Assembly (NCBI GenBank): GCA_018653605.1
Contig: JABHYY010000018.1
Coordinates: 120,413-184,412, forward strand
Source of the DNA: an archaeon
Lineage (GTDB): Archaea > Nanobdellota > Nanobdellia > SCGC-AAA011-G17 > GW2011-AR17
Length of the DNA: 64,000 bases
Direction of reading: 5' to 3'
Below the pieces are notes generated by a model. The model searched no databases. It worked only from the letters and a program-made list of their open reading frames with translations, and was not told where the DNA came from. The number at the start of each line of letters is the position of its first letter. The stretch's first letter is position 1. Both the position numbers and the translations under genes were made by a program. Below are positions 11,725 to 42,600 of this stretch, piece by piece.

Positions 11725-12509
11725 CTCCAAACCCTCCAAGGCACTTGATTTGATTTCCAAATATTATTCAAATGCTGATGATCTCTTGTAGTATCCATAC
11801 ACTGCCAAAATCCTTTATGTTTGTATGACATAAACTGTTGCTCAGAAGCCAACTGTTTCAACGGCTCCCTTTCCAACATACAATCCGGATCTTCAGTCAA
11901 ATAATCAAATATCTTTTTATTAAAAACAAAAAAACCACCATCAATCCACCCTTCATGAATCTTAGTTTTCTTAGTAAAATCTAAAATCTGTCCATGCTCA
12001 TTAATTGTAAGGTTACCAAACCTAGTTGAAGGTCTAACAGTAGTCACAGTACCAACTTTCCCATGAGTTCTATGATAATTTAACAATTCAGGAATATTAA
12101 TGTCAGCAACACCATCACCATAAGTCACCATAAAATTATCACCAGTAATATGCTTTTCAATCTTTTTAATTCTACAACCAGTATTACTATGCAAACCAGT
12201 ATTAGCAAAAGTTATGTTCCAATCAGGAATTTCAGTATCACCATGAAATATTTTATCTCTTGTTCTCAAGTTAAAAGTATAATCTTTCACATGACTATGA
12301 AAATTCCTAAAATAATTCTTAATCATATCACCTTTGTAACCTAAACAAAGAACAAAATCATTAAACCCATAATGAGAATATGTTTTCATTATATGCCAAA
12401 GAATAGGATGAGAACCAACATTAACTAAGGGTTTAGGCATAAACTCGGTCTCTTTATTCATACGAGTACCCATTCCACCACATAATATTACAACCTTAGG
12501 TTTTTCCAT
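11721..12509 (-). CDS. rfbF: Glucose-1-phosphate cytidylyltransferase
   Basis: [56 protein letters not shown] closely matches the RfbF N-terminus (G-G-x-G-T-R signature). Confidence 0.8.
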
Positions 12510-13186
12510 TTTGCAATCCTCCATTGAATCATGTTTGTTAAAAATTCTTTAACAGTATTAAGACGAACATTAGACCTTCCAGCCTTTCTTTCATCGAATT
12601 TAACCAACACCTCATCTACTTTAAAAGGTTTATGAACCAATCCTAACATTATTTCAGCATCAATAAACCAATCCCTAGATCTCAGGTGTAAACTATCATA
12701 AAAGTCCCTAGAAAAAAACTTAGGCTTAGCATTAATATCTCTATATTTTGTTAAAAAGAACAAATGAAACAACCCATTATAAAAAAATGAAGCAAAGATT
12801 CGCTTTAACCCATCACCTCTAGCATACCTAATAGCCTTAGCAAAATCATTTCCTGACTCTTTCATCTTTTTATACACTTTCAACATATCTTCAGGAGAAA
12901 CTTGCCCATCTCCATCAGCATACCCTAAGATATCGCCTCTACAAGCTTTCAATCCATTAATTATACCCCAGCCATAACCTTGATTTACTCTAAGAGTTAC
13001 AACTTTAATTTTGTTAGATTTCAACCTGTCCAAAATCTCCCCAGTCTTATCTTTAGAACCATTATTAACAATAACCAACTCATAATCCAACCCTTCCTTA
13101 TCAAAAGCCTTTTGCATTTTAGTCACAACTGACTCAACAATATCTTGCTCATTATACATGGGCATTACAAAAGACAACTCTACCAT
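12488..13186 (-). CDS. Family-2 glycosyltransferase (GT-A, Dpm1/DPG-synthase-like)
   Basis: LSFVMPMYNEQD...YELVIVNNGSKDKT...YADGDGQ (DxD). Confidence 0.75.
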   Translation of the reverse strand: MVELSFVMPMYNEQDIVESVVTKMQKAFDKEGLDYELVIVNNGSKDKTGEILDRLKSNKIKVVTLRVNQGYGWGIINGLKACRGDILGYADGDGQVSPEDMLKVYKKMKESGNDFAKAIRYARGDGLKRIFASFFYNGLFHLFFLTKYRDINAKPKFFSRDFYDSLHLRSRDWFIDAEIMLGLVHKPFKVDEVLVKFDERKAGRSNVRLNTVKEFLTNMIQWRIAKWKNLRL

Positions 13187-13231
13187 CCAACTTCAAAATA
13201 AAATATCTATTATAAGCTTTTTGGAGCTCAG

Positions 13232-13271
13232 ACACATTCAATAAGAACTAACTTATAGAAAAGACTTCTAA
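13232..13271. repeat. 40-bp direct repeat, copy 1: a duplicated fragment of the 3' end of the 13692-14270 methyltransferase gene
   Basis: acacattcaataagaactaacttatagaaaagacttctaa is identical to 13696-13735. On the minus strand it reads ...SLFYKLVLIECV* followed by a stop. Confidence 0.85.
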
Positions 13272-13403
13272 TGCTGATCAAGAGAATTATTCATTTAGTC
13301 TTTAAAAATTGTGTACAACAATGTTGGGTCGGTGGTTGGTTAGGTGAGTGAGGGATTCTGAAGAATCCAAATATATATAAATAAAATAAACTTTTTTGAT
13401 GAT

Positions 13404-13652
13404 ATGTCATTATACACTGGAAGGCCTAAACAAAATGCTGAAGCTTATGGTGCAGATTTACAAGCTGGAAGGTTAGATCAATTAAAAGATCATTTTGTTG
13501 CTTATAAAAATGGAGAATTACTAGATTCTAATCCAACAATAGAAGGTTTACATGCTAAACTTACAGATGAACCTGAAAGTCTTTTTATCACAAAAGTTGG
13601 TGATGAGAGAGTTATTAAATTTAGAAGACCTAGAAGAGTAATAAAGGTTTAA
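13404..13652 (+). CDS. Small hypothetical protein (82 aa)
   Basis: A clean ORF lying between the two copies of the 40-bp repeat. It is also bracketed by a 13-nt direct repeat gattctgaagaat (13319-13331 and 13662-13674). Confidence 0.4.
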   Translation: MSLYTGRPKQNAEAYGADLQAGRLDQLKDHFVAYKNGELLDSNPTIEGLHAKLTDEPESLFITKVGDERVIKFRRPRRVIKV

Positions 13653-13691
13653 GATTAAATTTAGATTCTGAAGAATTGAACAAAACCAAGA

Positions 13692-14270
13692 TCAAACACA
13701 TTCAATAAGAACTAACTTATAGAAAAGACTTCTAAACATGTGATACCTTTTCACCTTAGAATAATTATTCAACATATCCTTTAACAGAAAAAAATCCCTA
13801 ATATGCTTACCTCTATCCAAACTATACAACACCCTACCAACCAGATTATACTTCTGTGGCACAGGCTCCATAATAAAAACACCTTTTTTTGCAATCCTCT
13901 TACACTCATGCATCACCTTCTCAAACTCATCATCATCCATATGGTGTAGAAAGTTTAGTAAAAGCACTTTATCATAACTCTTATCCTTAAAATCCATATT
14001 CATTGCATCCATCACTGCAAATTTTTTATCAGGAAACTCTCTCTTAGCTTTCACAATGAATTCATCAAAAAAATCAACTCCAGTATAATTTTTCTTAAAC
14101 AATTTTGAAAATATTCCAGTCCCACACCCAATCTCTAAAACAGTCTCATCATCTTTATGATCAACAAACTTTGTCAGATTACTAAACATTGGTTTGTACG
14201 AACCAAGAACACACCATCTAACAACATCAAACAATATTGGCAAATCAAACACTTTATCTTTAATTGACAT
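13692..14270 (-). CDS. Class I SAM-dependent methyltransferase
   Basis: Motif I VLEIGCGTGIFSKLF, an acidic motif II, and LLLNFLHHMDDDE. The start is taken at MSIKDK to avoid overlap with the upstream membrane-protein gene. Confidence 0.7.
   Translation of the reverse strand: MSIKDKVFDLPILFDVVRWCVLGSYKPMFSNLTKFVDHKDDETVLEIGCGTGIFSKLFKKNYTGVDFFDEFIVKAKREFPDKKFAVMDAMNMDFKDKSYDKVLLLNFLHHMDDDEFEKVMHECKRIAKKGVFIMEPVPQKYNLVGRVLYSLDRGKHIRDFFLLKDMLNNYSKVKRYHMFRSLFYKLVLIECV
13696..13735. repeat. 40-bp direct repeat, copy 2: the native 3' end of the methyltransferase gene
   Basis: Identical to 13232-13271. It encodes the last 12 codons plus the stop of the 13692-14270 CDS. Confidence 0.85.
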
Positions 14271-15723
14271 TTTGATAGAGACAAACCTCCTCACTTTTAA
14301 ACTTTTCTTCAAATCCACACATCTTCAAAGTTTCACAATGTTCATCAAATGTAATAATATCAGTAGTTTCTAGTTCAGTTATAACTTCAGTAAAACCTTC
14401 ACAATCTTGTGCTTCTAAAGTTTCCATAGTTTGCACTTCTAAAAGATCAAGATATTCTAAAGAAGGAATCGAATACCACCCAGATGAGGTTGAAAGGTTT
14501 AGGTAAAGTGCAGCATAAGAATAATAAGCCATTTCATAAGACCCTTGTTCCATACCTAAGATAAGAAAAGTTCCTTCAACATGTTCCATTGTTTCTATCA
14601 TAGTTTCATCAAAGGTACTATTTTCAATAAAGAAAGGAGTGTGTAAAGCACTGACAACAACACTAGCCACTGCTATTAGGATCAGTAATACTGGAATAAC
14701 TCTCTTAAGTTTTGTAAACCTTGTCTTCAAGAAGAAAAATAATGTAAAAAATATAAAAAAGTAATTATAAGTGTCTGGGTAAACATACTTCAAACCAGGA
14801 ACAAAAATTATCAACCTTGTTAACACTAAAAAAGCTAAACCTAAAACAGGTAAGAAAAATAAAAATTCTTTTTTAACATTCTTACCTTTCACATAAAAGA
14901 TAAAACAAGTTAGCACAGCTAATGAAGTTATGGTTGTAATCAAAGTTTGCAACAGATACTCAGAGTTGAATAACAATAATGTTTCAGTTAAAACTATTGT
15001 AACACCATGTGAACCAAAGAAATTCATCACATAGGGATACAACCAGAATGAACCTATTACTAAAGATAAAACAAAAATTAAAGCAATGTAAACTTTTTCT
15101 CTTCTAATCACAAAAAACCATAACAGCATCACAGTTCCAAGCATTGCAATAACCTGATGAGACAAGATTGTTAAAGTGTAAACAGGTAAACCAAGTAAAA
15201 AATACTTATCTAACTCCCTATCTTTGTAATAAATAAACAAGAGTAATAAAAAACTAAGCCAGAACAAACCAAAAAATTCATGCAACCTGCCTAAACGAAG
15301 GAAATTGCCAATTGCCATAGCATTCGCAGTGAAAAAAACAAACCAGAGCAAAGATCGCAAGCAAGACATTTTTAATTTCTTTCCAAAAACCAAAAATAAA
15401 ACCAAAAAGGCAACATAAGTACCAACAAGAGATAAGTAAGCAACAACTTGCACATTACCAATTAAAAGATACAAAGGATACATAACTAAAAACCAAGCAG
15501 GTGCAATCAAAAGAAATGAAATAAACCCCCCATACCAATAAGGACAAAACTCATGAAATCCACAAGATTGTAAAAAATGCAACTGAGTCATATAAGATGA
15601 CCAATCATTAACCATGTCAAAAGGGAAAGTAAACATTACTTGTGATTGATCAATTAACCTAATCACTAAATATGCAAATAATATAACTATAGGGGCTAAT
15701 AACCACCAATCTGACTTTTTCAT
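14260..15723 (-). CDS. Polytopic integral membrane protein (≥10 TM), possibly a GT-C-type glycosyltransferase
   Basis: A 487-aa highly hydrophobic protein in glycan-locus context. No catalytic motif could be recognised by eye. Confidence 0.4.
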   Translation of the reverse strand: MKKSDWWLLAPIVILFAYLVIRLIDQSQVMFTFPFDMVNDWSSYMTQLHFLQSCGFHEFCPYWYGGFISFLLIAPAWFLVMYPLYLLIGNVQVVAYLSLVGTYVAFLVLFLVFGKKLKMSCLRSLLWFVFFTANAMAIGNFLRLGRLHEFFGLFWLSFLLLLFIYYKDRELDKYFLLGLPVYTLTILSHQVIAMLGTVMLLWFFVIRREKVYIALIFVLSLVIGSFWLYPYVMNFFGSHGVTIVLTETLLLFNSEYLLQTLITTITSLAVLTCFIFYVKGKNVKKEFLFFLPVLGLAFLVLTRLIIFVPGLKYVYPDTYNYFFIFFTLFFFLKTRFTKLKRVIPVLLILIAVASVVVSALHTPFFIENSTFDETMIETMEHVEGTFLILGMEQGSYEMAYYSYAALYLNLSTSSGWYSIPSLEYLDLLEVQTMETLEAQDCEGFTEVITELETTDIITFDEHCETLKMCGFEEKFKSEEVCLYQNVN

Positions 15724-15775
15724 TCAAGCAGAAACATTCAAAACCTTTTTAAAACTTATCAAACTTTGCTAAATA

Positions 15776-17396: not shown

Positions 17397-18509
17397 ATGA
17401 AAATCACAGTTATTGGACCAACATTTCCATACAAAGGAGGAATTTCACACTATAACACAGTTTTCTGTCAAAAATTAATCAAAAAACACAAAATAGATGC
17501 AATCTCATTCAAAAGACAATACCCAAAATTACTCTTCCCAGGCAAGGACCAAAAAGACAATAAAAGCAAAGACAGAATCAAGTTCAGAGCAACAGAAATC
17601 ATTGACACATTAAACCCATTCACTTGGCTAAAAGCAGTAAAACGAATACACGAGTTCTGTCCAGAAATAGTTCTACTTTACTGGTGGACTCCATACTTCA
17701 CATTCAACTTTTTCACAATCAGCTACTTAGTAAAAAAACTAACAAGATCAAAAGTAGTTTTTCTATGCCACAATGTAGCACCACATGAAGCAAGGTTTGT
17801 TGACAAGTTTCTAACAAAGATTGGTCTATCATACGCAGACTCATTCATTGTACATGGTGAAGAAGAAAAAGAAACACTAAAATCAATGGTACCAAAAGCA
17901 AAAATCACAAAACATGTTCACCCAACTTATGACATTTTCAAAGAAAAGTTCAAAAAGCAAGATATAAATTTAAAACTAAGAAAAAAGGTTATTTTATTCT
18001 TTGGTTATGTGAGGAAGTATAAAGGTTTAGACCATTTGTTAGATGCACTACCAGAACTAGTTAAAAAATATCCTGATTTAGACTTGCTTATTGTTGGAGA
18101 ATTTTGGAAAGACTCTGATGAAACATTAGAAAAGATAAAAAATCATCCAGCAAAGGATCACATTAAACTAGTTGACTCATATGTACCAAATGAAAAAGTA
18201 GGAAATTACTTTGAAGTATGCGACATTTGTGTTCTACCTTACAACACAGCAACAAACTCAGGAATTGTACAAACAGCATTTGCATTTGAAAAACCATGTG
18301 TTGTAACAAGAGTTGGAGCACTACCAGAAGTTGTGACTCACGACAAAACAGGCTTAGTTATCGACAGAAAAAGCCCAAAAGCAATAGTAGAAGCAGTATC
18401 ACACTTTTATGATAAAAACAAAGCAAAAGAATACAAACAAAACATAATTAAAGAAAAAGACAGATTCTCTTGGGATAGACTAGTTGAAGTCTTAGAAAAA
18501 CAAAAATGA
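17397..18509 (+). CDS. GT-B glycosyltransferase, family 4-like
   Basis: GT-B C-terminal domain: GYVRKYKGLDHLLDA...LLIVGEF...E-x7-E-like. Paralogous to 24056-25207. Confidence 0.65.
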   Translation: MKITVIGPTFPYKGGISHYNTVFCQKLIKKHKIDAISFKRQYPKLLFPGKDQKDNKSKDRIKFRATEIIDTLNPFTWLKAVKRIHEFCPEIVLLYWWTPYFTFNFFTISYLVKKLTRSKVVFLCHNVAPHEARFVDKFLTKIGLSYADSFIVHGEEEKETLKSMVPKAKITKHVHPTYDIFKEKFKKQDINLKLRKKVILFFGYVRKYKGLDHLLDALPELVKKYPDLDLLIVGEFWKDSDETLEKIKNHPAKDHIKLVDSYVPNEKVGNYFEVCDICVLPYNTATNSGIVQTAFAFEKPCVVTRVGALPEVVTHDKTGLVIDRKSPKAIVEAVSHFYDKNKAKEYKQNIIKEKDRFSWDRLVEVLEKQK

Positions 18510-19573
18510 AACCTAAAGTCGCAATAATAAACAGCACTTATGAAAGGATAGATATTAAGGAACTACTAACTTCAATAGACTACACTCCAAAGAAAAAGAA
18601 AATTCTACTAAAACCTAACATTGTTGGTCCAAAAGATGAAAACTCACATGTCATCACAAACCCCAAAGTTTTGATAGCACTAATTGAATACTTCAAAGAT
18701 TATGAAATTGTTATTGGAGAAGGGTCAGTTGCAGGCACTGACACCAAATTATGTTTTAAATCAGCAGGTTATGAAGAAATTGCAAAGAAATACAATGTTA
18801 AGCTATTAGATTTCAATGTTTGCGAAAGAAAAAAAGTAAAATGGAAATATGGAGAACTTTCACTTCCAAAGATTCTTGACACACATGAATACATTAATGT
18901 TGCAAAAATGAAAACTCATCTGCAAACCACAGTGACCCTTGCAATGAAAAACCAAAAAGGTTTATTATCACCTTTAGACAAAAAAGAGTTCCACAAGTCA
19001 GGTGAAATTAATGCAAAGATTGCAGCATTGAATGAAGTTATTAAACCTGATTTGAATGTCATTGACGCAATTGACTGTATGGAAGGCAATGGTCCTGGTG
19101 CTGAAGGTACTAAAATAACAATCAACAAATTATTAGCATCAACAGATGTTTATGCAATTGACAATGCAGCACTAAAAATAATGGGCATTCCAATTAACAA
19201 AGTAAAGTATATGAAGAAGCAAGAATACGAAACAATTGGAATTTTATCAGAACACAGATTCAAAATGCCCGACGAGTACTACCACAAACTAGGTTTAAGA
19301 ATGTGGTTCAACAGTTCTTGCTCAGGATGCAACCATAACATCATGACAGCAATCAAAACACTACCTAAGTATCCATTCAAAACAATCAAATTCTTATTTT
19401 TAGTAACATTTGGAAAATTGAACATAATTGCAGGACCAGATTATAGCAAACTACCAAAAAAAGGTAAAATAATTTGTGTAGGCACATGCACAAAAAAACT
19501 AGCAAAAGAAAAGGGTTACTTTCATATAGATGGATGTCCACCAAAAGTTGAAGAGATCATAAAATGGTTGTAG
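18506..19573 (+). CDS. DUF362-family protein with a C-terminal Cys cluster (putative Fe-S protein)
   Basis: N-terminal KVAIINSTYERID...ILLKPNIVGP...VIGEGSVAG is DUF362-like. C-terminal CSGC...CVGTC...GCPP. Paralogous to 19564-20646 and 21767-22891. Confidence 0.5.
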   Translation: MKPKVAIINSTYERIDIKELLTSIDYTPKKKKILLKPNIVGPKDENSHVITNPKVLIALIEYFKDYEIVIGEGSVAGTDTKLCFKSAGYEEIAKKYNVKLLDFNVCERKKVKWKYGELSLPKILDTHEYINVAKMKTHLQTTVTLAMKNQKGLLSPLDKKEFHKSGEINAKIAALNEVIKPDLNVIDAIDCMEGNGPGAEGTKITINKLLASTDVYAIDNAALKIMGIPINKVKYMKKQEYETIGILSEHRFKMPDEYYHKLGLRMWFNSSCSGCNHNIMTAIKTLPKYPFKTIKFLFLVTFGKLNIIAGPDYSKLPKKGKIICVGTCTKKLAKEKGYFHIDGCPPKVEEIIKWL

Positions 19574-20646
19574 TAATAAAAAAAACAAAGTTGAAAAACA
19601 TTGACAAAGATGTAGCACAAGCTCTACAACAGATCAAATACCAACCAAAAAAGAAAAAAGTTATGATAAAACCTAATTTAGTCTATGGTACAGGTGCAAA
19701 ATCAGGAATAATCACACACCCAAAACTTGTTGAAGCACTAATTAAATTCCTACAAAAGTTTGATTGTGAAATAACAATAGCAGAAGGCAGTGGAGTTGGA
19801 CACAACACAAAACAAGTTTTCAAAAAAACTGGCTATGAAAACCTAGCAAACAAATATGGAGTAAAATTATTAGATTTGAATACCTGTGAAAGAAACGAAC
19901 ACAAATGGAAATATGGAAAAATAAAATTACCAAAGATTCTTGATGATCATGAATACATCAATGTTCCGACGCTAAAAACACACACAATCACAACAGTTAC
20001 ATTAGGAACAAAAAACCAAAAGGGATTATTAGATTGGCCAACAAAAAAATCATTCCACACAATTGGAGTTGACAAAAGTGTAAGAGCTTTAGCAGATGTA
20101 GTACAACCTGATTTAACAGTAATAAACGCATTATACTGTTTAGAAGGAAATTCTATTTCATTACTAAAAACAGGAAAGAAAATGAACATGATCATTGCAG
20201 GTCAAGACATGTTTGAAACTGACAACATTGGAATACAAGTTATGCAAACTGATTCTTCACAAATCAAACATTTTCCAATAATTAAAGACATCAAAATTAT
20301 AGGAGAAAAACTAGAAAAAGTACAAACTAAATTTGCAGAACCTCAAAAGATTAGAAAAATCCTAAACATTGAATTCCAAATGAATGGTTGCTCTGGTTGC
20401 AGTGTAAACATGGAAAGAACAATGAAAAAGATTGCAAAACACCCCTTACTACTCTTAAAATTCTTTTACTTAGCACTTTTCAAGAATATAACTTTTGTTT
20501 CTGGACATTCATTAAAGAGAGAATTAAGAAAAGGTACAAAAGTAATCTATGTTGGTATTTGCACACAAAAAATTTCTAACAACAAATACATCCAAGGGTG
20601 TCCACCAGAACCTGATTTGATCATTGAAGCTATTCGGAAAGCTTAA
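19564..20646 (+). CDS. DUF362-family protein with a C-terminal Cys cluster (putative Fe-S protein)
   Basis: VMIKPNLVYG...IAEGSGVG; C-terminal CSGC...GICTQK...GCPP. A tandem paralog of the preceding gene, overlapping it by 10 nt. Confidence 0.5.
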   Translation: MVVVIKKTKLKNIDKDVAQALQQIKYQPKKKKVMIKPNLVYGTGAKSGIITHPKLVEALIKFLQKFDCEITIAEGSGVGHNTKQVFKKTGYENLANKYGVKLLDLNTCERNEHKWKYGKIKLPKILDDHEYINVPTLKTHTITTVTLGTKNQKGLLDWPTKKSFHTIGVDKSVRALADVVQPDLTVINALYCLEGNSISLLKTGKKMNMIIAGQDMFETDNIGIQVMQTDSSQIKHFPIIKDIKIIGEKLEKVQTKFAEPQKIRKILNIEFQMNGCSGCSVNMERTMKKIAKHPLLLLKFFYLALFKNITFVSGHSLKRELRKGTKVIYVGICTQKISNNKYIQGCPPEPDLIIEAIRKA

Positions 20647-21770
20647 GAATTCAACCTTTTCTTCACAGACATAACATCTTTATACAAACCTTGCAAACTA
20701 GAAAGATTTCTAAAAGGACTACATAATGTAGAAAACCTGACATTATTATTAGCTTGATCAAAACAACAATTACAAATTGGATAAAAATCTCTTTTAGCTA
20801 ACTTCCTTCGAACACAATTAGCTTTCTTCCTTTCATCCCTCAAACATCCATCACGAACATTACCTTTTGGCTTCAATAACAAACAAGGCAACAACCCACC
20901 ATCATAATTAATTATCACATAAGAAAAAGGAATAAAACAAAAATAGTTTTTCATAACCCTATCATGGAAAAAACCTTTCTTCAACTTCAAATTCTTAAAA
21001 TATTCAACAATCCATTTCCTATTAAACTCTAAATCACAATCAACATCCAAATCAGAAGCAACAGCAATCCCCTTATCAATATACTCAATAATAGAATCAA
21101 CATCATAATCAGCAAACTCACTTTTATCACCAACAGCACCTAACTGAGGAAAATTACTCTCAATATTAATTGGTCTAAACATCACCTTACGAATACCTTT
21201 CTCCTTAGCCAACTTAACAATCTCAGGAATTTGTTTATAATTTTGACCCATTATAATCGATTCAAAAGAAATATTATCAAAACCTTTAGACTGGAACTTT
21301 TCAATACCTTTCATAATCATTTCATACAACTTAGGAGTTCGCCTACAATGATTATGCTCTTCAGCAACAGAAGAATCCAAAGAAATAATCAAAGAATCTA
21401 AATTCTTTAACAAAACCTCCATCTTATCATCAGACAAAACAGGCAACAATAAACCATTTGTAACAATTCCAACCTTAATTCCAGCCTCTTTCAACTTTTC
21501 AATTATCAAATAAATATCTTTTCTTAAAAAAACCTCACCACCACTCAAAGTCAAGTACTTAATACCCATGTCCTTCATCTCTTTAATCAACACCAAAGCT
21601 CTTTCAGTGCTAACTTCCTCTTCAGGCTTATACATATTCTTTATCCCCAATTCACAAAAGGGACACTTACAATTACACTGTGCTGTAATAATCCAATTAG
21701 CAATAAAAGGAGAATCCTTTTTACCATAATAAATATTCAACAATTTACCCATCTCTTTAACATTACTCAT
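20643..21770 (-). CDS. Radical SAM enzyme with a C-terminal SPASM/twitch-like Cys-rich domain
   Basis: CNCKCPFC (CX3CX2C), SGGEVFL; C-terminal CLLLKPKGNVRDGC...CNCCFD cluster. Confidence 0.75.
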   Translation of the reverse strand: MSNVKEMGKLLNIYYGKKDSPFIANWIITAQCNCKCPFCELGIKNMYKPEEEVSTERALVLIKEMKDMGIKYLTLSGGEVFLRKDIYLIIEKLKEAGIKVGIVTNGLLLPVLSDDKMEVLLKNLDSLIISLDSSVAEEHNHCRRTPKLYEMIMKGIEKFQSKGFDNISFESIIMGQNYKQIPEIVKLAKEKGIRKVMFRPINIESNFPQLGAVGDKSEFADYDVDSIIEYIDKGIAVASDLDVDCDLEFNRKWIVEYFKNLKLKKGFFHDRVMKNYFCFIPFSYVIINYDGGLLPCLLLKPKGNVRDGCLRDERKKANCVRRKLAKRDFYPICNCCFDQANNNVRFSTLCSPFRNLSSLQGLYKDVMSVKKRLNS

Positions 21771-22891
21771 TTCAAACTCCTCTTAACCCTTTTTTCAATA
21801 AATCTCCTCAAATAAGTCTTATGTATTTTAATTGCATCCTCAGGACAAACTTCATGACAACAGAAACATTTGATACACTTACTATAATCAATAACAGGTT
21901 TTTTATCTTTAGGACTAATAGCTTTTGCAGGACAAATCTTTATACAATTAAAACAAGACACACACTTATCAAGAACAATCACAGGTTTTGCATCAAACAA
22001 CCTTTTAGCTAAAGGATAAGATATCTTCTGAACTTTCCCAAAAATAGGAGAGCCAGTAAAAGAATCAGGCATTTTAATTGTCTTTCCAATGTAAACATGA
22101 TCACCAACAACTTCAGCCTCTTCATAAACTCCTCTTTCCTTAGCAATTCTCTGAATAGGAATCTCTGAATCTTTTTGACCAACAATTTTAACAACAGCAC
22201 TATCCAAAGCAAAAGCACTTTTAGAACATGCCATAAAGCCAAACTTCCTAGGAACACCATTTGAAGGACCATTCCCTTCCATCCCAACAACCCCATCCAA
22301 AATTGTCAAATCAGGTTTAACAAAATTAAAAACATCAATCAACATGTGAGCAAAAGCATCCCTATCCCTTCCAGTTTTGAAATGCATTTGATTTCTATTA
22401 TCAGGCTTAACCAACCCAAACATGTTTTTCACACCTAAAGTCAAACCCATCAAAGAATGTGTTTTCAGTTTAGCTAAACTAACAATAAAATCAGCCTTTG
22501 CTGCAACAGGAACTGCCAACTTCTTAAAATGCACATTAGAACTATTTTCAACAAACTCAAATTCTCCCAACTCTTTAATCTCAACATCCAAATCAGAACA
22601 AATTTTATCAACACCACACTTCTTTGCAGCATTCAAAGCAGAACCAATACTAGGAATCTCATAAATAAAAGGTTTACCACCCTTCTCAATAATAACCTTC
22701 AAAACAGCCTCGATAACAACAGGATGAGTGATAACAGCACTAGATGCATCTTTAGCCAAAAGAAAATTAGGCTTAACCAAAACAGACTTACCTTTCAAGT
22801 CCATATCAAAACAATCTTTAACAAAATCATAAACTTTCAAATCATAATTTTCAACATTCCTAATTAGAACTTTTTCCATTTCCTGCTCCAA
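21767..22891 (-). CDS. DUF362 domain fused to a 2x[4Fe-4S] ferredoxin domain
   Basis: VLVKPNFLLAKD...DGVVGMEGNGP is DUF362-like. C-terminal CVSCFNCIKICP and CIKCFCCHEVCP are two CxxCxxCxxxCP motifs. Stop/start overlaps with both flanking radical SAM genes. Confidence 0.65.
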   Translation of the reverse strand: MEQEMEKVLIRNVENYDLKVYDFVKDCFDMDLKGKSVLVKPNFLLAKDASSAVITHPVVIEAVLKVIIEKGGKPFIYEIPSIGSALNAAKKCGVDKICSDLDVEIKELGEFEFVENSSNVHFKKLAVPVAAKADFIVSLAKLKTHSLMGLTLGVKNMFGLVKPDNRNQMHFKTGRDRDAFAHMLIDVFNFVKPDLTILDGVVGMEGNGPSNGVPRKFGFMACSKSAFALDSAVVKIVGQKDSEIPIQRIAKERGVYEEAEVVGDHVYIGKTIKMPDSFTGSPIFGKVQKISYPLAKRLFDAKPVIVLDKCVSCFNCIKICPAKAISPKDKKPVIDYSKCIKCFCCHEVCPEDAIKIHKTYLRRFIEKRVKRSLK

Positions 22892-24059
22892 AAAAATAAT
22901 AGTAAAACACTTTAGTCAACTCTTTTGGACTCAAAACAGTATCCAAGAAAGATTGCCCTACTAAAGGACAATGACACTGGTTAGATTTTACAAACTTTCT
23001 CATCTCATTTGCTCTTTCAGAATGCCACAACTTATCAAAATCAAAAGCAAAGTCTCTAACATTACCCATCTCCTTCTGAAAGGCTTGCACATTACACAAC
23101 CACATTCCACCCCAAGGATTCAAATGAGAATTACTTATTCCAGCATAACAAGGAACAACTCTTTTACCACCAACCATAACTTTTTCAGCTCTTTTGTAAT
23201 ACACCAACCTCAAAGCCTGAACAAACCTACTAAACTTCCTATTAACTTTCATTTGCTCTCTAACATCATCCAACAAAAGACCAATCACTTTTTCATAATC
23301 ATTTCCAGTCGGTGTAACATGCAAATCACCCATCACACCCTCAAACTCATCTTGCAATTCTTTATCAGTATCAACATTAAACAATTCAGCTCTAGTGTCA
23401 GCAATCTCATGCAAAAAATTATCCAACCTAAACTCTTTTTCAACATACTCAGTAATTTCTTTAATATCACCAAGGTTACTCATACTAACAGTAACACCAG
23501 CATCCAAGTACAAGTTAGGATGCAACACTCTAATCTTAGCCAACCTTTTGTAAGTATCAACCAACTTATCAAAATTACCTTCAACACCTCTGATCTTATC
23601 ATGCTTTTCACCAATCCCATCCAAAGACAACTTAATTGTAAATTTAACATCCTTAGGAATCCTTCTCATAATACTCAAAGTCAACTTTTCAACTTTTTCA
23701 GGTGACAAACAATTAGTAGGAGTGTGAATCACTGTAGGCTTAAGATGTTTACAAGCAAGAACACAAATTTTATCCAAATCCTCTCTCAAAAAAGGTTCAC
23801 CACCACAAATACTCAACTGAAAAACAGGATCCATAGTCTTAAACACTTTTTCAATCTCATGCAAATTCAACTCTTTCTTCTCTTTTTCAGGAAACTCTTT
23901 ATACAACTTCCAAATATTACACATTGTACACTTAGATTGGCACTTATTAGTTATACTAAAATTAAAAAACAAAGGATGAGGAGGCCTAGCTAATCCCCAC
24001 ATAGCCAACTTATACTTTACCAATCTTGGAAAAACTTTCAAACCATATTTCAATATCAT
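22860..24059 (-). CDS. Radical SAM enzyme with a C-terminal SPASM/twitch-like Cys-rich domain
   Basis: CQSKCTMC (CX3CX2C), CGGEPFL; C-terminal VPCYAGISNS...WLCN...CHCP. Confidence 0.7.
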   Translation of the reverse strand: MILKYGLKVFPRLVKYKLAMWGLARPPHPLFFNFSITNKCQSKCTMCNIWKLYKEFPEKEKKELNLHEIEKVFKTMDPVFQLSICGGEPFLREDLDKICVLACKHLKPTVIHTPTNCLSPEKVEKLTLSIMRRIPKDVKFTIKLSLDGIGEKHDKIRGVEGNFDKLVDTYKRLAKIRVLHPNLYLDAGVTVSMSNLGDIKEITEYVEKEFRLDNFLHEIADTRAELFNVDTDKELQDEFEGVMGDLHVTPTGNDYEKVIGLLLDDVREQMKVNRKFSRFVQALRLVYYKRAEKVMVGGKRVVPCYAGISNSHLNPWGGMWLCNVQAFQKEMGNVRDFAFDFDKLWHSERANEMRKFVKSNQCHCPLVGQSFLDTVLSPKELTKVFYYYFFGAGNGKSSN

Positions 24060-25207
24060 TCTAAAACCCTCTCATACACTTCTGCAGTCTTTTTTGCAAC
24101 TCTTTCCCACTCAAACTGAGAATCAGCAATTCTTGCACCTAAAGATAACTTAGTTTGTAATTTTTTATCATTTAATAACTTTATCACACTATGAGCCAAC
24201 TTATTAACATTACCACCCTCAACAACCATAGCATTCTCACCATCTTTCAAAACTTCCATTATACCACCAACATCAGAAACAATAATTGGTTTGTTAAATG
24301 CTAACCCAACCAAAAGAGGACCACTTATAGTTTGTTCAGTGTTATGATAAGGCAAAACCATTATATCAGCCAAATCAAAATACTTGTGAACATCTTTATC
24401 TAAAATGTAATCAGGAAACATCCTAACATACTTTTCAATCCCTTCTAAATCATCTTCATACTCTTGCAAATCTTGCCAAAGTTCACCAGCAACAACCAAC
24501 CTAGCCTTAGGAACCTCTTTAATCACTTCTTTCATTGCCCTCAAAAGATATCTCAAACCTTTATACTCTCTAATATAACCAAAGAACAAAACAACTTGAT
24601 CATCATTTGACAATCCCATTTCCTTTCTCAAATCAGCCTTACTCTCTTTCTTCCACTTAGTAAAATATCCAAAAGTACCATGAGGCACAACATGAACATT
24701 AGAATCCTTAATCCCATAATCACCAACCAACCTTTTCCTATTCTGCTCAGCATGCACAATAAAATGATCAATCTTAGAAAAAACAGCTTTAGTAAAAACT
24801 TTATCAACAGCAGTTGACTCATGTGGCTCAATATTATGACAAGTTAAAACAGTTTTCTTCCTAGCAAAGAATTTATTCAAAACAAGAATCACATACTGCA
24901 AAGGTGTAAGCAAAGGTGAAACCCAATGTAAATGAATCACTTGATTATTTTTCAAAAAATTATAAGCCTTAACCCAAGACAAAGGATTGTACCAAGTTAC
25001 AAAATTATAACTTCTCTTGTAAAACCTAATCCCACTTCTATCTTTTGTAGGCAATTTACCTTTGTAAAAAAATGGAGGATACAATTTATCAAACCCAACC
25101 AACCTATGATCAACATACTCTTTCATAGAATTAGCCAAAAGTATACAGTATTGCACAATCCCACCTTGAAAAGGAGGATTATGCACCAACATTCCAACTC
25201 TAATCAT
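24056..25207 (-). CDS. GT-B glycosyltransferase, family 4-like
   Basis: Paralog of 17397-18509 (VGMLVHNPPFQGGIVQY versus ITVIGPTFPYKGGISHY). GT-B C-terminal domain. Confidence 0.65.
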   Translation of the reverse strand: MIRVGMLVHNPPFQGGIVQYCILLANSMKEYVDHRLVGFDKLYPPFFYKGKLPTKDRSGIRFYKRSYNFVTWYNPLSWVKAYNFLKNNQVIHLHWVSPLLTPLQYVILVLNKFFARKKTVLTCHNIEPHESTAVDKVFTKAVFSKIDHFIVHAEQNRKRLVGDYGIKDSNVHVVPHGTFGYFTKWKKESKADLRKEMGLSNDDQVVLFFGYIREYKGLRYLLRAMKEVIKEVPKARLVVAGELWQDLQEYEDDLEGIEKYVRMFPDYILDKDVHKYFDLADIMVLPYHNTEQTISGPLLVGLAFNKPIIVSDVGGIMEVLKDGENAMVVEGGNVNKLAHSVIKLLNDKKLQTKLSLGARIADSQFEWERVAKKTAEVYERVLE

Positions 25208-26645
25208 CTTTCTTAAACAATATCTTTCCCTTTATAATAGATTTTGCCCCCCTAAAAGTATATTTGAAATCTTCATAATTCTTAATCTTTGCAACTTGCG
25301 ACAACACATAAGATGGCCTTAAGAAAAACTTAGCATGTGCATTACTTACAATATCCTTCATCTCTTCACGAGGGATTATAGTTTTCAACACAGGCCCTGA
25401 AGTCATGTCAAACTTTGAACAATCATTCAAAACATCACTATAAAACCAATCATTCTCAATAGCCTGATCATACATCTCAGAACCAGGATGTGGAAACACT
25501 AACGAATACTGCACAGTGTCAGCTTCTAACTTCAAACCAAAATTAATAGTATTATCCATCTCAGCTTTAGTTTCCCAAGGAAACCCAACCATCAAATTCA
25601 CATGACAAATGATTCCAGCCAACTTAGTTAACTTAACTGCCCTTTCAGTCTGACCAACATCAATTTTTTTATTAGTTTTTTCCAAAGTTCTAGGATTCGC
25701 AGACTCAACACCATAACAAATCAATTTACACCCAGCTTGTTTCATTAACTGCAACATTTCCAAATCAACACAATCAACCCTTCCACTACAACTCCACACA
25801 ATATTAACATCTCTTCTTAAAATCTCATCACAAAACTCAACAACTCTTTTCTTAGAAATATTAAATGTCCCTTCATCAAAAAACACCTCTTCCATCCCAT
25901 ACCTCTTAATCAACCACTCCAACTCATCCACAACATTCTTTGCAGACCTAACCCTCACACTATGCCCATAATACACATGAGGCCAAAGACAAAAAGTACA
26001 CTTGTTAGGACACCCTCTTGCAGCCATCACAAAAGTAAAAGGAAAATTTCTAACATGCCCTTCAATATACCATTCATGTGGAATCAAGTCTCTATCAGGA
26101 AAAGGCAAAGTATCCAAATCCTTGATTAATTCAGCAGGTTCATTATTAACTATATCATCACCATCCATAAAACAAATCCCTTTAACTTTCTTTAAAGATC
26201 TTTTTTTCTTAATTGCATTAACAACATTCAAAGTAGTTTGATCCATCTCACCTTTAATCACAACATCAACTTTACTATTTTCAACAGTTTTTTCAGGGAA
26301 TTTGGTCACATGACTACCAGCCATCAAAACTTTAACATCAAACCTATCTTTAATTTTATTAACAACCTTCAAATCATAAGCATAAGTTGGAGTTGCAGTT
26401 TCAATAAAAATAACATCAGGATCAAAAGCACCAACTTCATCCAAAGTTCTTTTCAAATCAAAATCCTGAATCACAGAATCAATATATTTTACATCATAGC
26501 CATTCTCTTTAAGCAAAGTAGCCACATAACACAACAAAATCGGATATCTATTGGTTTTATCCCCTCTTTTCCTAGGCCACCTATTCTGGCTTCTAAGCCC
26601 ATAACCCTCTCCAGGCCATGGTGGATGCAAAAATAAGATTTTCAT
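25200..26645 (-). CDS. B12-binding-domain radical SAM enzyme (class B)
   Basis: An N-terminal B12-binding Rossmann-like domain (KILFLHPPW..., DVIFIE) followed by a radical SAM core AARGCPNKCTFC. Confidence 0.8.
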   Translation of the reverse strand: MKILFLHPPWPGEGYGLRSQNRWPRKRGDKTNRYPILLCYVATLLKENGYDVKYIDSVIQDFDLKRTLDEVGAFDPDVIFIETATPTYAYDLKVVNKIKDRFDVKVLMAGSHVTKFPEKTVENSKVDVVIKGEMDQTTLNVVNAIKKKRSLKKVKGICFMDGDDIVNNEPAELIKDLDTLPFPDRDLIPHEWYIEGHVRNFPFTFVMAARGCPNKCTFCLWPHVYYGHSVRVRSAKNVVDELEWLIKRYGMEEVFFDEGTFNISKKRVVEFCDEILRRDVNIVWSCSGRVDCVDLEMLQLMKQAGCKLICYGVESANPRTLEKTNKKIDVGQTERAVKLTKLAGIICHVNLMVGFPWETKAEMDNTINFGLKLEADTVQYSLVFPHPGSEMYDQAIENDWFYSDVLNDCSKFDMTSGPVLKTIIPREEMKDIVSNAHAKFFLRPSYVLSQVAKIKNYEDFKYTFRGAKSIIKGKILFKKDD

Positions 26646-26693
26646 TATAGAATTTTATTAATTCCTTCTTTTAAATGTTGCTAATCTCTAGTA

Positions 26694-27008
26694 TTAGGTA
26701 CTCGTAGACTTTACTAATTGTAAAGAAATATCATTAGGTTGAACAACAGTCCCATTCTTTCCAACAGGAATACCATCAGCAGTTATTTGTTCTAATTCAG
26801 ACATCAACAGATCTACTACCTCATGAGGATGAGGTTCATCACCAACAAGCCTTACAGGAATAGAATCAAAATGCTTTTGAACACGATAATTATCCAAAAA
26901 ACGAGGATTTAATTCATAATCATAAGTTGTTTGTCTACCAAGTAAACGACCTATTAGAGTAGGTGTTTTTACTTTTGGACCTGTGTAATAACCAATTAAA
27001 ACATGCAT
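26694..27008 (-). CDS. Hypothetical protein (104 aa, Lys-poor)
   Basis: A clean ORF between a B12-rSAM and a SPASM-rSAM; no motif recognised. Confidence 0.35.
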   Translation of the reverse strand: MHVLIGYYTGPKVKTPTLIGRLLGRQTTYDYELNPRFLDNYRVQKHFDSIPVRLVGDEPHPHEVVDLLMSELEQITADGIPVGKNGTVVQPNDISLQLVKSTST

Positions 27009-31948: not shown

Positions 31949-31971
31949 AACAATCCATAAACCTTAAAAAA
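31949..31971. promoter_or_regulatory. Partial copy of the repeated promoter module (aacaatccataaaccttaaaaaa) upstream of wzx
   Basis: Its 23 nt are identical to 42593-42615. The TATA-like ttaaaaaa lies ~25 nt upstream of the wzx ATG. Confidence 0.5.
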
Positions 31972-31992
31972 CAATCTTCTATTAACTAAATA

Positions 31993-35355: not shown

Positions 35356-36819
35356 TTGACTACAATGCGAATACTATTCCTTATTCCAGAAATTCGAATT
35401 GCTAGGTACACACTACCCTTCTGGCTAAAAAGGCTAAACCCACCAGAATCACCACACCTAGGTGTAGCACAACTCTGCGAAATCTTGAAACAAAATGGCC
35501 ATCTAGTAAAAGTTATAGATTTGCAACTAAAAAACAAAGCTTATGCTAATAGAATTATCAAAAAGTTCAAACCAAATGTAATAGGCTTCACAATAACAAG
35601 CTACTGCACAGAAAAAGTTTACAATCATATTAGAAAAATAAAAGAACAACACCCAAGAACACCAATAATGGTAGGTGGTGCACACCCTTCTTGTGTTGGA
35701 AAAGATGTTCTAAAACAATGCGAAAAGATAGACTTTGCAGTTGTTGGTGAAGGTGAACAAACAATAATTGAATTGTTAAATGCTATTAAAAAAAATAAAG
35801 GTTTTTCAGATATTGATGGTTTAGGTTGGAGAAAGAATGGGGAGATTATAGCTAACAAACCAAGAAAATTCATTGACAACCTTGATGAAGTACCATTTCC
35901 AAAATACCATGAATTCAATTTACCCAAATATCAAGATTGGAAACAAAATAGTATATCAATGATAACTTCAAGAGGTTGCCCTTTCAGTTGTGTTTACTGT
36001 TCTGTGTTCCAAAGCATGGGGAAAAAGTTTAGAGTTCGTACAGCAGAGAATGTTGTAAAAGAAATTGAATACTGGCACAAAAGAGGGATTAAGAAATTTA
36101 ACTTCAATGACGACTGTTTCACACTAAAACCAAAACGAGTTGAAGAAATCTGTGACTTGATTCTTAAGAAAAAATTGAAAATTGAGTATAGGCTGTACAA
36201 TGGGATTAGAGTTGATTTATTGACCAAAGAATTAGTACACAAAATGAAACTAGCAGGTTGCACATCAACTTCTTTAGGTATAGAGACTGGAAATGAAGAA
36301 ACAATGCGACACATTAAGAAAAATATTAACTTTGACCAAGTTTTTAAGGCTATTAAATGGTTAAAAGAAGAAAAAATTGCTACTGTTGGAAACTTTATCA
36401 TCGGTCACCCATATGAAACTTACGAAAAAGGTTTAGATACAATCAAAATGTCAGAAAAAATAGAAACCGACTATATTAATTTTAATAATGTAATTCCATA
36501 TCCAGGAACAGAATTATTTGACTGGATAAAAACTCATGGTAAATTTACAATCTCTCCTGAAGTTTACCTTAACAATGTTTCAGGCAAAAGAATGAAAATG
36601 CCTCTTTTTGAAACCAAAGATTTTTCAGTTAAAGAAAGAGAAAAGTTATTGAAAAAAGGAGTTTATAATTTCAGGAAAAGGTACATTAGGAGCAAAGTTA
36701 GAAAACCTTTTTCAGAAATTTTAGTATATTTAGCAAAGTCCGATATAGCATTTGGTTTAATCGAAACAGCTAAAAACATGAAGATATTTACTATAATTAA
36801 GAAGAGTTTGATGAAATAA
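35356..36819 (+). CDS. B12-binding-domain radical SAM enzyme (class B)
   Basis: A B12-binding N-terminal domain followed by TSRGCPFSCVYC (CX3CX2C). Confidence 0.8.
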   Translation: MTTMRILFLIPEIRIARYTLPFWLKRLNPPESPHLGVAQLCEILKQNGHLVKVIDLQLKNKAYANRIIKKFKPNVIGFTITSYCTEKVYNHIRKIKEQHPRTPIMVGGAHPSCVGKDVLKQCEKIDFAVVGEGEQTIIELLNAIKKNKGFSDIDGLGWRKNGEIIANKPRKFIDNLDEVPFPKYHEFNLPKYQDWKQNSISMITSRGCPFSCVYCSVFQSMGKKFRVRTAENVVKEIEYWHKRGIKKFNFNDDCFTLKPKRVEEICDLILKKKLKIEYRLYNGIRVDLLTKELVHKMKLAGCTSTSLGIETGNEETMRHIKKNINFDQVFKAIKWLKEEKIATVGNFIIGHPYETYEKGLDTIKMSEKIETDYINFNNVIPYPGTELFDWIKTHGKFTISPEVYLNNVSGKRMKMPLFETKDFSVKEREKLLKKGVYNFRKRYIRSKVRKPFSEILVYLAKSDIAFGLIETAKNMKIFTIIKKSLMK

Positions 36820-36820
36820 A

Positions 36821-37345
36821 ATGGCAAGAGTAATAATACCAAAAACATGGGTTCCAATTGATGGACCCTTTGTATATCTAGCAGGACCTATTAGAGGTGC
36901 ACCAAATTGGCAAGATGAAGCTGTAAAATATCTTGTTTCACAAAAACAAGATATTACTATTATTTCACCAAGAAGAGAGATTAGAGAAGCCATTGAACGA
37001 TATGTTGTAAAAGGAGAAGAAGGTGCATTTGATAGACAAAGAAAATGGGAAAGGCAATACATGGACATGGCTATGATTGGAGGACAAGGGGTAATTATGT
37101 TTTGGCTACCAGGTGAAACTAATCATTTATGTCAAAAACCATATGGTGCAATGACAAGGTTTGAACTTGGATATGTATTAGCAAACCATAGAAATGACAG
37201 ATCAGCAAAATTTTGTATAGGAAGTGATGGAAATTTTCCTGAATTAAGAACTATAGAGGTTGATTTGAGTATAGATTCACCTTTAACAACAGTTTATGAA
37301 ACTTTAGAAGCAACTTGTTATAAAGCATTAAATTTAATGAAATGA
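36821..37345 (+). CDS. Nucleoside 2-deoxyribosyltransferase-like protein (NDT/Rcl/BlsM-type N-glycosidase fold)
   Basis: FVYLAGPIRGAPNW...VIMFWLPGE...GAMTRFELGYVLAN is the hallmark VYLAGP N-terminus with a conserved Glu in the flavodoxin-like fold. Confidence 0.5.
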   Translation: MARVIIPKTWVPIDGPFVYLAGPIRGAPNWQDEAVKYLVSQKQDITIISPRREIREAIERYVVKGEEGAFDRQRKWERQYMDMAMIGGQGVIMFWLPGETNHLCQKPYGAMTRFELGYVLANHRNDRSAKFCIGSDGNFPELRTIEVDLSIDSPLTTVYETLEATCYKALNLMK

Positions 37346-38356: not shown

Positions 38357-38397
38357 TCAGAATAAGCAATAAACTACTCTTTAAAAGATTTTCCAAG

Positions 38398-38688: not shown

Positions 38689-38705
38689 TTCAAAAAAATG
38701 TCCTC

Positions 38706-39782: not shown

Positions 39783-39829
39783 AAACCTTAAAAAATAAAC
39801 TCCAATTTATAAAACCTATGGAACAACAA
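39778..39829. promoter_or_regulatory. 52-nt repeated divergent-promoter module, copy A
   Basis: tccataaaccttaaaaaataaactccaatttataaaacctatggaacaacaa is identical to 42601-42652. It carries TATA-like boxes in both orientations and includes a relic ATG GAA CAA CAA start of a methyltransferase gene. Confidence 0.7.
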
Positions 39830-42557: not shown

Positions 42558-42600
42558 ATAAATAATAACACATACAACCCTTAAATACTTTACTCAACAA

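What the first reader, a model, noticed from the sequence alone, without database searches (positions are those of the whole stretch)
13232..13735. A 40-bp perfect direct repeat duplicates the 3' end of a methyltransferase gene and brackets an 82-aa ORF, with nested 13-nt repeats: an integration scar or mini-element
The 40-bp sequence acacattcaataagaactaacttatagaaaagacttctaa occurs at 13232-13271 and 13696-13735. The second copy encodes the last 12 codons (FYKLVLIECV*) of the methyltransferase at 13692-14270. The first copy is an orphan gene-end fragment lying 424 bp away, in the divergent promoter region. The inner 13-mer gattctgaagaat occurs at 13319-13331 and 13662-13674, flanking the small ORF at 13404-13652. 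Copy 1 sits in a hairpin context, GGATTCTgaAGAATCC. Duplication of a gene's 3' end at the far junction is the classic footprint of site-specific integration into a protein-coding gene, where the element carries a replacement 3' end. At ~460 bp with no integrase, this is either a decayed remnant or a small non-autonomous element. A G-rich patch at 13296-13320, which stands out in this AT-rich genome, also lies inside the segment.
Basis: seen in the sequence. Interest (0 to 1): 0.55.

Follow-up and report, generated by a model that had tools for sequence, protein, structure and literature searches.

The report
Small one-gene insertion duplicating a gene end
A marine archaeon recently gained about 420 bp of foreign DNA carrying one small gene of unknown function, inserted at the stop codon of a methyltransferase gene with a 40-bp copy of that gene's end on each side; the event is real and cleanly dated by empty sites in relatives, but it looks like an ordinary integration scar.

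Summary
The 40-bp perfect direct repeat is real (13232-13271 and 13696-13735) and extends to 47 nt with two mismatches. The correct ones are 13354-13366 and 13664-13676 for the 13-mer, and about 13326-13355 for the patch.

It is not an assembly artefact. At least 18 independent metagenome contigs carry the same arrangement.

Comparison with relatives settles the event. A sister species (about 88% nucleotide identity, four contigs) and two more distant relatives have the methyltransferase followed directly by the glycosyltransferase. The sister's alignment to the window breaks into two blocks that overlap by exactly the 40 nt. The window lineage therefore gained a 464-bp duplicative insertion: 417-424 bp unique plus the duplicated gene end.

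The cargo is a self-contained gene: a palindrome, a TATA-like promoter and an 82-aa ORF. The ORF belongs to a very rare archaeal family found in a different context in each lineage, with no fold or function match.

No integrase, transposase, terminal inverted repeats, attC hairpin, tRNA or Rfam RNA is present.

The best reading is an attL/attR-type (Campbell) recombination footprint of a decayed or non-autonomous element. A repair or template-switch duplication is the main rival. Interest is modest.

The parts
12488..13186 (-). Family-2 glycosyltransferase gene. It lies downstream of the methyltransferase on the same strand, and in relatives it follows that gene directly.
   Evidence: Pfam Glycos_transf_2, E 6.5e-28. 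The start region aligns with L113 and L019.
13187..13224 (-). Ancestral methyltransferase-glycosyltransferase spacer, still in place. Together with 13225-13227 it makes up the 41-nt gap seen in the sister. It contains a relic of an older methyltransferase tail (gct cca aaa agc tta taa = APKSL*, 13210-13227) and a TATA-like CTTATAATAG upstream of the glycosyltransferase.
   Evidence: Collinear with the sister's 41-nt spacer (34 of 41 identical). The tail is homologous to the L019 methyltransferase C-terminus APDAKSL*.
13225..13271 (-). Direct-repeat copy 1: the orphan methyltransferase 3' end (perfect 40-mer at 13232-13271), including a TGA at 13228-13230. It is contiguous with the ancestral downstream flank.
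13272..13688 (+). Unique inserted DNA (417 nt), absent from the sister and from the two outgroups. It has no second copy in the window or in any fetched locus.
13326..13355 (+). G-rich patch with 17 G in 30 nt and a GG-N-GG-NN-GG-NNN-GG run. Function unknown.
   Evidence: No significant fold. No Rfam or tRNA match.
13353..13368 (+). Palindrome GGATTCT-GA-AGAATCC, containing 13-mer copy 1 (13354-13366) and sitting immediately upstream of the TATA-like box. Read as an operator-like site.
   Evidence: A palindrome of the same layout (GTACT-GT-AGTAT) sits at the same place upstream of the homologue in L027.
13369..13403 (+). TATA-like promoter region and short leader of ORF82 (AAATATATATAAAT...CTTTTTTGATGAT).
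   Evidence: Aligns with the region upstream of P0007 in L027. The promoter role is inferred from archaeal promoter layout.
13404..13652 (+). ORF82: an 82-aa protein of a very rare archaeal family with a conserved C-terminal FRRPRRVI motif. Function unknown.
13664..13676 (+). 13-mer copy 2 (GATTCTGAAGAAT), 11 nt after the ORF82 stop codon.
13689..13735 (-). Direct-repeat copy 2 (perfect 40-mer at 13696-13735). It is the working 3' end of the methyltransferase, with the stop TGA at 13692-13694. The 7 nt next to the insert differ from copy 1 at two positions.
13692..14270 (-). Class I SAM-dependent methyltransferase, the target gene, left intact by the insertion.
   Evidence: Pfam. The C-terminus aligns with homologues.

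Best explanation
Shown:
- In this lineage of an AT-rich marine archaeon, 417-424 bp of foreign DNA was inserted at the stop codon of a methyltransferase gene. The gene lies inside a methyltransferase-to-glycosyltransferase gene row of a glycosylation island.
- The last 40-47 bp of the methyltransferase are now present on both sides of the insert.
- Copy 2 keeps the methyltransferase complete, stop codon included.
- Copy 1 stays attached to the old downstream spacer and the glycosyltransferase.
- The cargo is one self-contained gene unit on the opposite strand: palindrome, TATA-like box, then an 82-aa ORF of a rare family that sits in a different context in every lineage.
- The event is younger than the split from an 88%-identical sister species.

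Inferred mechanism: reciprocal (Campbell-type) recombination between the chromosomal gene end and a matching 40-47-bp segment on a circular DNA. That is an attL/attR footprint of an integrative element that carried a replacement gene end with its own stop codon. What remains today has no recombinase. It is therefore either the remnant of a larger element after internal deletion, or a passenger that needs a recombinase supplied in trans.
For: Insertion and polarity:
- Empty sites in L113-L116 (41-nt gap), L019 (23-nt gap) and L020-L022 (overlapping stop and start).
- The blastn blocks of L113 against the window overlap by exactly 40 nt.
- Copy 1 plus its flank is collinear with the sister sequence and with the L019 tail.

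Not an artefact: at least 18 contigs from megahit, SPAdes and JGI assemblies are identical in this region.

Recent: there are no differences in the 40 nt, against a third-codon-position distance of 0.29 to the sister. P(0 differences) is below 0.03 if the event were older than half the split time.

Fits an att-type origin:
- The repeat length lies in the range reported for archaeal att sites (29-69 bp, median 45), and 14 of 68 thaumarchaeal elements sit in 3'-distal parts of protein genes, some supplying a new stop codon (PMC6563490).
- Identity decays on the insert side of copy 2 only: 40 of 40, then 5 of 7 including an in-frame TGA and a synonymous GTC-to-GTT change, then none. Both variant bases are contiguous with insert DNA, as expected if that stretch came in with the element.

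Foreign cargo:
- ORF82 has no relative above 44% identity among about 15 billion proteins.
- Its four homologous lineages lie in four unrelated contexts.
Against: - No integrase, transposase or reverse transcriptase was found. The insert has none, and neither do the window ORFs of 120 aa or more that were scanned. Three giant ORFs (47949-63926) were not scanned, and eight scanned ORFs had no Pfam hit.
- At 417 nt the insert is far below any known autonomous element.
- Both repeat copies share lineage-specific states absent from the sister (GAA versus GAG, TGA versus TAA). An incoming att segment would have had to come from this same lineage. A duplication made in place explains this more simply.
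- No circular form, no second copy and no unoccupied variant was seen within the species.
- ORF82 homologues in L027 and L028 have no flanking repeats.
- Nothing similar was found in IMG/VR, phage or plasmid collections.
Confidence: 0.5

Rival explanations
1. The duplication was made in place by repair or replication. Either foreign DNA was captured at a break with long staggered ends, or a replication template switch (microhomology-mediated, MMBIR/FoSTeS-like) copied 417 nt from co-resident DNA. Synthesis then resumed 40-47 nt upstream on the original template, so the target ended up duplicated on both sides. No recombinase or mobile element would be needed.
For: - Both copies are identical over 40 nt and share this lineage's own substitutions relative to the sister.
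- No recombinase, terminal inverted repeats or other element features are present.
- The insert is a single event in the window, with no other copies.
- The 5-of-7 stretch at one junction could be imperfect junction microhomology.
- The locus lies in a glycosylation island, where gene content differs even between sister species. One example is a 1.08-kb indel with no repeats, at L113 883-1964 against window 15724-15775.
Against: - No donor copy of the 417 nt exists in the window or in any database searched.
- An in-frame TGA directly after the 40-mer has about a 5% chance if that DNA were unrelated to the gene end (my estimate).
- Alternatively, two later substitutions both falling in the last 7 of 47 nt has about a 2% chance (my estimate).
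- Such events are poorly documented in archaea.
Confidence: 0.3
2. ORF82-type genes ride on a distinct kind of miniature single-gene cassette (about 0.45 kb). A recombinase encoded elsewhere would move the cassette and leave direct repeats of about 45 nt. The window would hold a single cassette, and L031/L032/L117 a tandem array at one site.
For: - The homologue in L031 is bracketed by a 44-nt repeat (43 of 44 identical) with 446-nt spacing, against 47 nt and 464 nt here.
- L032 has six copies of that roughly 50-nt motif delimiting five same-strand single-gene units, including GNAT acetyltransferases. One copy follows the last unit, where no gene follows.
- L031 and L032 place the homologue next to different neighbours.
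- In L032 the homologue's C-terminus reads into the motif.
Against: - Only two lineages show repeats. L027 and L028 show none.
- In L032 the motif sits 30-45 nt upstream of each start codon and contains TTTAAA, so it may simply be a duplicated promoter.
- The motif has no hairpin, so it is not attC-like.
- The window repeat is target-gene sequence, unrelated to that motif.
- No recombinase has been linked to either locus.
Confidence: 0.12
3. Assembly or chimera artefact, or a chance repeat.
For: Two low-coverage contigs (L012, L015) end inside the insert.
Against: At least 18 contigs from different samples and assemblers agree base for base. No shuffle out of 100 gave a 40-mer match. The 40-nt overlap with the sister genome is exact.
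Confidence: 0.01

Closest known systems
attL/attR footprints of archaeal integrated mobile elements that target the 3'-distal part of protein-coding genes (surveyed for Thaumarchaeota in PMC6563490; crenarchaeal att sites 29-69 bp)
   Same: Direct repeats of about 40-47 bp, one of which is the end of the target gene. The gene stays intact, with a stop codon next to the inserted DNA. Related genomes show an empty site.
   Different: There is no integrase and no other element gene. The insert is 417 nt rather than kilobases. Both repeat copies carry the host lineage's own substitutions. No excision product is known.
Integron gene cassettes, including archaeal integrons (PMC9668308)
   Same: A unit of about 0.45 kb carrying one small ORF of unknown function, inserted into a gene row. 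A homologue sits in a cassette-like array with GNAT genes in L032.
   Different: There is no attC hairpin, no R'/R'' core pair at a suitable spacing, and no integron integrase or attI. The unit carries its own promoter-like region. The flanking repeats are target-gene sequence.
Target-site duplications of DDE transposons, MITEs and casposons
   Same: An insert flanked by a duplication of target sequence.
   Different: The duplication is 40-47 bp, against 2-15 bp for those elements (my background knowledge). There are no terminal inverted repeats at the insert ends and no transposase or Cas1.
DUF5678 (PF18929) small archaeal proteins
   Same: Similar size and predicted strand-helix layout. One of the five family members gives a weak hit (E 0.042).
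   Different: The hit is below any threshold. The window protein itself does not match.

Membership tests
Integrated mobile element with attL/attR (recombinase-mediated) | Direct repeats flank the insert, and one repeat is part of the target gene | tested here: met
Integrated mobile element with attL/attR (recombinase-mediated) | Empty site in related genomes, with a single copy of the repeat | tested here: met
   L113-L116, L019 and L020-L022.
Integrated mobile element with attL/attR (recombinase-mediated) | Element encodes a tyrosine or serine recombinase, or a recognisable fragment of one | tested here: not met
   The only ORF is the 82-aa protein, which has no Pfam, NCBIfam or PHROG family and no fold match. 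All frames through the repeats are closed except the methyltransferase frame (read).
Integrated mobile element with attL/attR (recombinase-mediated) | Excision to a circle, or presence/absence polymorphism within the population | not testable with these tools
   No reads are available. All contigs of the species carry the insert.
DDE transposon / MITE | Terminal inverted repeats at the insert ends and a short (2-15 bp) target duplication | tested here: not met
   No inverted repeat pairs the insert ends. The duplication is 40-47 bp.
Integron gene cassette | attC site: an imperfect inverted repeat that folds as single-stranded DNA, with R''/R' core sites | tested here: not met
   No significant fold on either strand at 13272-13403 or 13645-13700. 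No long inverted repeat.
Integron gene cassette | Integron integrase and attI nearby | tested here: not met
   None among the scanned ORFs of the 64-kb window. The three giant ORFs were not scanned.
Casposon | Cas1 and family B polymerase genes, terminal inverted repeats, 14-15 bp target duplication | tested here: not met
   The insert has a single 82-aa ORF and a 40-47 bp duplication.
tRNA or other known RNA gene within the insert (G-rich patch, CTGAAGA loop) | Match to a tRNA or Rfam covariance model | tested here: not met
   ARAGORN found no gene. Rfam gave no match at gathering thresholds and only one chance-level hit at E up to 10.
DUF5678 (PF18929) | Score above the Pfam gathering threshold | tested here: not met
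   No hit for the window protein. One homologue scores E 0.042.

The most novel reading that the evidence does not exclude
ORF82-family genes may mark an undescribed class of miniature single-gene cassettes (about 0.45 kb) in small-genome archaea. A recombinase supplied in trans would insert them at sites of about 45 bp that lack hairpins. Each insertion would leave long direct repeats, and repeated insertion at one site would build tandem arrays, as in L032. This would be an integron-like gene-capture system without attC.
Probability: 0.1. Interest if true: 0.75.

Novelty: new member of a known kind. Interest (0 to 1): 0.33.

Why it matters
This is a cleanly documented, recent gene gain in an uncultivated marine archaeon. 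The occupied site, three levels of empty site, exact junctions and polarity are all established. It shows how an orphan gene with its own promoter can enter a tight operon without damaging either neighbour.

If the long repeat turns out to be the signature of a recombinase acting in trans on tiny cassettes, it would point to a new gene-capture route in small-genome archaea. As it stands, it is most simply a decayed integration scar inside a variable glycosylation island.

Tried and rejected
1. tRNA, split-tRNA or small-RNA reading of the G-rich patch and the CTGAAGA loop: rejected. ARAGORN and Rfam were negative, and the hairpin loop has 6 nt rather than 7.
2. A longer, decayed duplication of the methyltransferase 3' region beyond the 47 nt: rejected. 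Local and anchored alignments score no better than shuffles.
3. Structured RNA or DNA in the insert: rejected. Fold z-scores lie between -1.9 and +1.1.
4. G-quadruplex uniqueness: not supported. The two-tetrad motif is present, but 18 other such motifs exist in the window.
5. GATTCTGAAG as a genome-wide regulatory motif: rejected. The other two copies are coding sequence for LDSE.
6. Viral or plasmid origin: no evidence. The 40-mer, the G-rich patch and ORF82 are all absent from IMG/VR, INPHARED and PLSDB.
8. The L031 44-nt repeat as an independent target duplication: downgraded. The same motif occurs six times in L032, and it has no hairpin.
9. Conserved synteny of ORF82 homologues with a phosphodiesterase-type gene: rejected. 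The two neighbouring genes are barely related, and the small neighbouring ORFs are unrelated.
10. GTDB genome scan with the methyltransferase profile: uninformative. It was swamped by generic methyltransferases. The scan with the ORF82 profile found nothing.
11. A second indel between the sister and the window (L113 883-1964) was checked for flanking repeats: none found.

Full report
**Observation.** The 40-mer ACACATTCAATAAGAACTAACTTATAGAAAAGACTTCTAA occurs exactly twice in the window, at 13232-13271 and 13696-13735. None of 100 shuffles gave any match. Extended without gaps, the repeat is 47 nt (13225-13271 / 13689-13735) with two mismatches, both in the 7 nt at the low-coordinate end. The G-rich patch is at about 13326-13355, with 17 G in 30 nt. 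The ORF is at 13404-13652.

**Gene layout.** On the minus strand the order is as follows:
- a 487-aa membrane protein (14260-15723);
- a class I SAM methyltransferase (13692-14270);
- the segment in question, with ORF82 on the plus strand;
- a family-2 glycosyltransferase (12488-13186);
- a nucleotidyltransferase and two epimerases.

The methyltransferase and the glycosyltransferase are therefore consecutive genes on one strand. ORF82 runs against them. The wider window is a glycosylation and cell-surface island: many glycosyltransferases, radical SAM/B12 and DUF362 genes, a flippase, and giant repetitive proteins. PCNA and, in relatives, RNA polymerase subunit L and TFIIS mark it as archaeal. 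NCBI labels the proteins only as '[archaeon]'.

**Not an artefact.** At least 18 contigs from different samples and assemblers (megahit, SPAdes, JGI) carry both 40-mers and both 13-mers at the same spacing. They show zero to three differences over 12488-14270, none in the repeats.

**Empty sites.** Cluster look-up revealed a methyltransferase about 92% identical (P0014) and a glycosyltransferase (P0021) on the same Tara contig, 41 nt apart. Four independent contigs of this sister species (L113-L116) show the methyltransferase stop, then 41 nt, then the glycosyltransferase ATG. More distant relatives also have the two genes adjacent:
- L019 (methyltransferase 70% identical) has a 23-nt gap.
- L020-L022 (64% identical) have overlapping stop and start codons.

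A blastn comparison of L113 with the window gives two collinear blocks, L113 1965-3992 = window 15723-13696 and L113 3953-9996 = window 13271-7228. These overlap in L113 by exactly the 40 nt. The window lineage therefore acquired a 464-bp duplicative insertion. ORF82 is absent from all these relatives.

**Polarity.** On the minus strand, copy 1 continues GTC TGA GCT CCA AAA AGC TTA TAA and then runs on to the glycosyltransferase. This is collinear with the sister sequence (GTC TAA CCT CCA AAA AGC TTA TAA). It also matches the C-terminal tail of the L019 methyltransferase, APDAKSL*. Copy 1 is thus the old gene end, still in place.

Copy 2 continues GTT TGA TCT and then passes into unrelated DNA. 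No similarity beyond the 47 nt exists on either side. Inside the repeat both window copies share states that the sister lacks: GAA rather than GAG, with L019 also GAG, and TGA rather than TAA.

**Age.** Third-codon-position distance to the sister is 0.29. Zero differences in 40 nt gives P below 0.03 if the duplication were older than half the time since the split. The insertion is therefore recent, yet fixed in every sampled population.

**Cargo.**
- ORF82 matches only itself in the word-indexed search of 5.8 billion protein clusters.
- A full HMMER pass finds three real relatives at 40-44% identity (P0007, P0008, P0009) sharing a C-terminal FRRPRR(V/I)I motif. A profile search adds P0011.
- The relatives lie in unrelated contexts: between an alkaline-phosphatase-superfamily gene and a NUDIX gene (L027); beside GAPDH and PGK (L028); and in a cassette-like array (L031, L032, L117).
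- No Pfam, NCBIfam or PHROG family is assigned. One homologue gives a weak DUF5678 hit.
- The AlphaFold model (mean pLDDT 72) has no convincing structural neighbour.
- Phage, plasmid and IMG/VR collections hold no relative.
- The region upstream of ORF82 aligns with that of P0007 in L027. The alignment covers the TATA-like box and a palindrome of the same layout immediately upstream (GGATTCT-GA-AGAATCC against GTACT-GT-AGTAT). Palindrome 1 therefore belongs to the gene's own promoter and arrived with the gene.

**What the insert lacks.** It has no recombinase, transposase or reverse transcriptase, and none is found among the window ORFs scanned. It has no inverted repeats at its ends. It has no attC-like or other significant fold. 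It has no tRNA or Rfam RNA. There is no other copy in the window or in any locus.

**Mechanism.** Two models fit.

- **(a) Campbell-type recombination.** The chromosomal gene end recombined with a matching segment on a circular DNA, giving attL and attR.
  - In favour: the repeat length is typical of archaeal att sites, and 3'-distal parts of protein genes are known targets, sometimes with an element-supplied stop codon (PMC6563490).
  - In favour: the two mismatches lie precisely in the part of copy 2 that adjoins insert DNA, and that part still supplies Val plus TGA in frame. This is what a carried replacement gene end would look like.
  - Against: there is no recombinase, the insert is tiny, and the incoming segment would have had to carry this lineage's own substitutions.
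- **(b) A duplication made in place.** This could be capture of foreign DNA at a staggered break, or a template switch.
  - In favour: it explains the shared lineage-specific substitutions and the lack of element features.
  - Against: it needs either a lucky in-frame stop (about 5%) or two later substitutions clustered in 7 of 47 nt (about 2%) (my estimates). No donor copy is known.

I put (a) at about 0.5 and (b) at about 0.3.

**A more novel reading.** The homologue in L031 is bracketed by a 44-nt repeat at 446-nt spacing. This looked like an independent parallel. In L032, however, the same roughly 50-nt motif occurs six times and delimits five single-gene units. It lacks any hairpin. It may be a recombination site of a cassette array, or merely a duplicated promoter. 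It is not a target duplication comparable to the one in the window. I keep the idea of a trans-mobilised mini-cassette at about 0.1.

**Verdict.** The finding is a real, recent and well-delimited single-gene insertion with a long duplication of the target gene's end. It is best filed as an integration scar or non-autonomous remnant.

Noticed in passing
L032 114-2712 (also L031 90-579 and L117): There are six copies of a roughly 50-nt motif (..CATTTATCCCCA..AAAATAACGTAAT..TTG.CTTTAAACGGGG) at intervals of 380-570 bp. They delimit five same-strand single-gene units: two unknowns, two GNAT-like acetyltransferases and the ORF82 homologue. One copy follows the last unit. L031 and L032 place the homologue next to different neighbours, and in L032 its C-terminus reads into the motif. 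The layout is cassette-array-like, but the motif has no hairpin.
   Followed up: partly
window 13210-13230: After the methyltransferase stop in copy 1, the reading frame continues as APKSL*, homologous to the APDAKSL* tail of the L019 methyltransferase. The stop codon therefore moved upstream in this clade, leaving a relic tail that overlaps the promoter-like region of the glycosyltransferase.
   Followed up: partly
L113 883-1964 versus window 15724-15775: The sister species has an extra 309-aa gene with no Pfam hit, between the 226-aa methyltransferase and the 487-aa membrane protein. The window has only a 52-nt spacer there. This indel has no flanking repeats.
   Followed up: partly
window 31949-31990, 39773-39814, 42596-42637: A 42-nt motif (AACAATCCATAAACCTTAAAAAA.AA.CT...) occurs three times (71-83% identical). 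Two copies end just before plus-strand gene starts (31993 and 42641). The third lies between two minus-strand genes. It is possibly a shared promoter.
   Followed up: no
window 39816-42557, 47949-52304, 53532-63926: Three very large minus-strand ORFs (913, 1451 and at least 3464 aa) have internal repeats: 102-nt tandem units at 41585-42439, a C/T-rich low-complexity stretch at 48596-49033, and 0.9-1.5-kb repeat units across 54339-63584. The largest probably runs off the end of the window.
   Followed up: no
window 13276-13281 and 13690-13695: The hexamer GATCAA occurs at both inner ends of the inserted DNA, 4 nt after copy 1 and overlapping the stop codon in copy 2. It may be chance or junction microhomology.
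   Followed up: no
L030 1-177: A perfect 75-nt inverted repeat lies at the start of this contig, next to the P0009 gene. It is most likely an assembly artefact.
   Followed up: no
window 17397-27000 and 35356-47022: There is an unusual concentration of radical SAM/B12-binding and DUF362 (4Fe-4S) genes interleaved with glycosyltransferases. This suggests heavily modified surface glycans.
   Followed up: no
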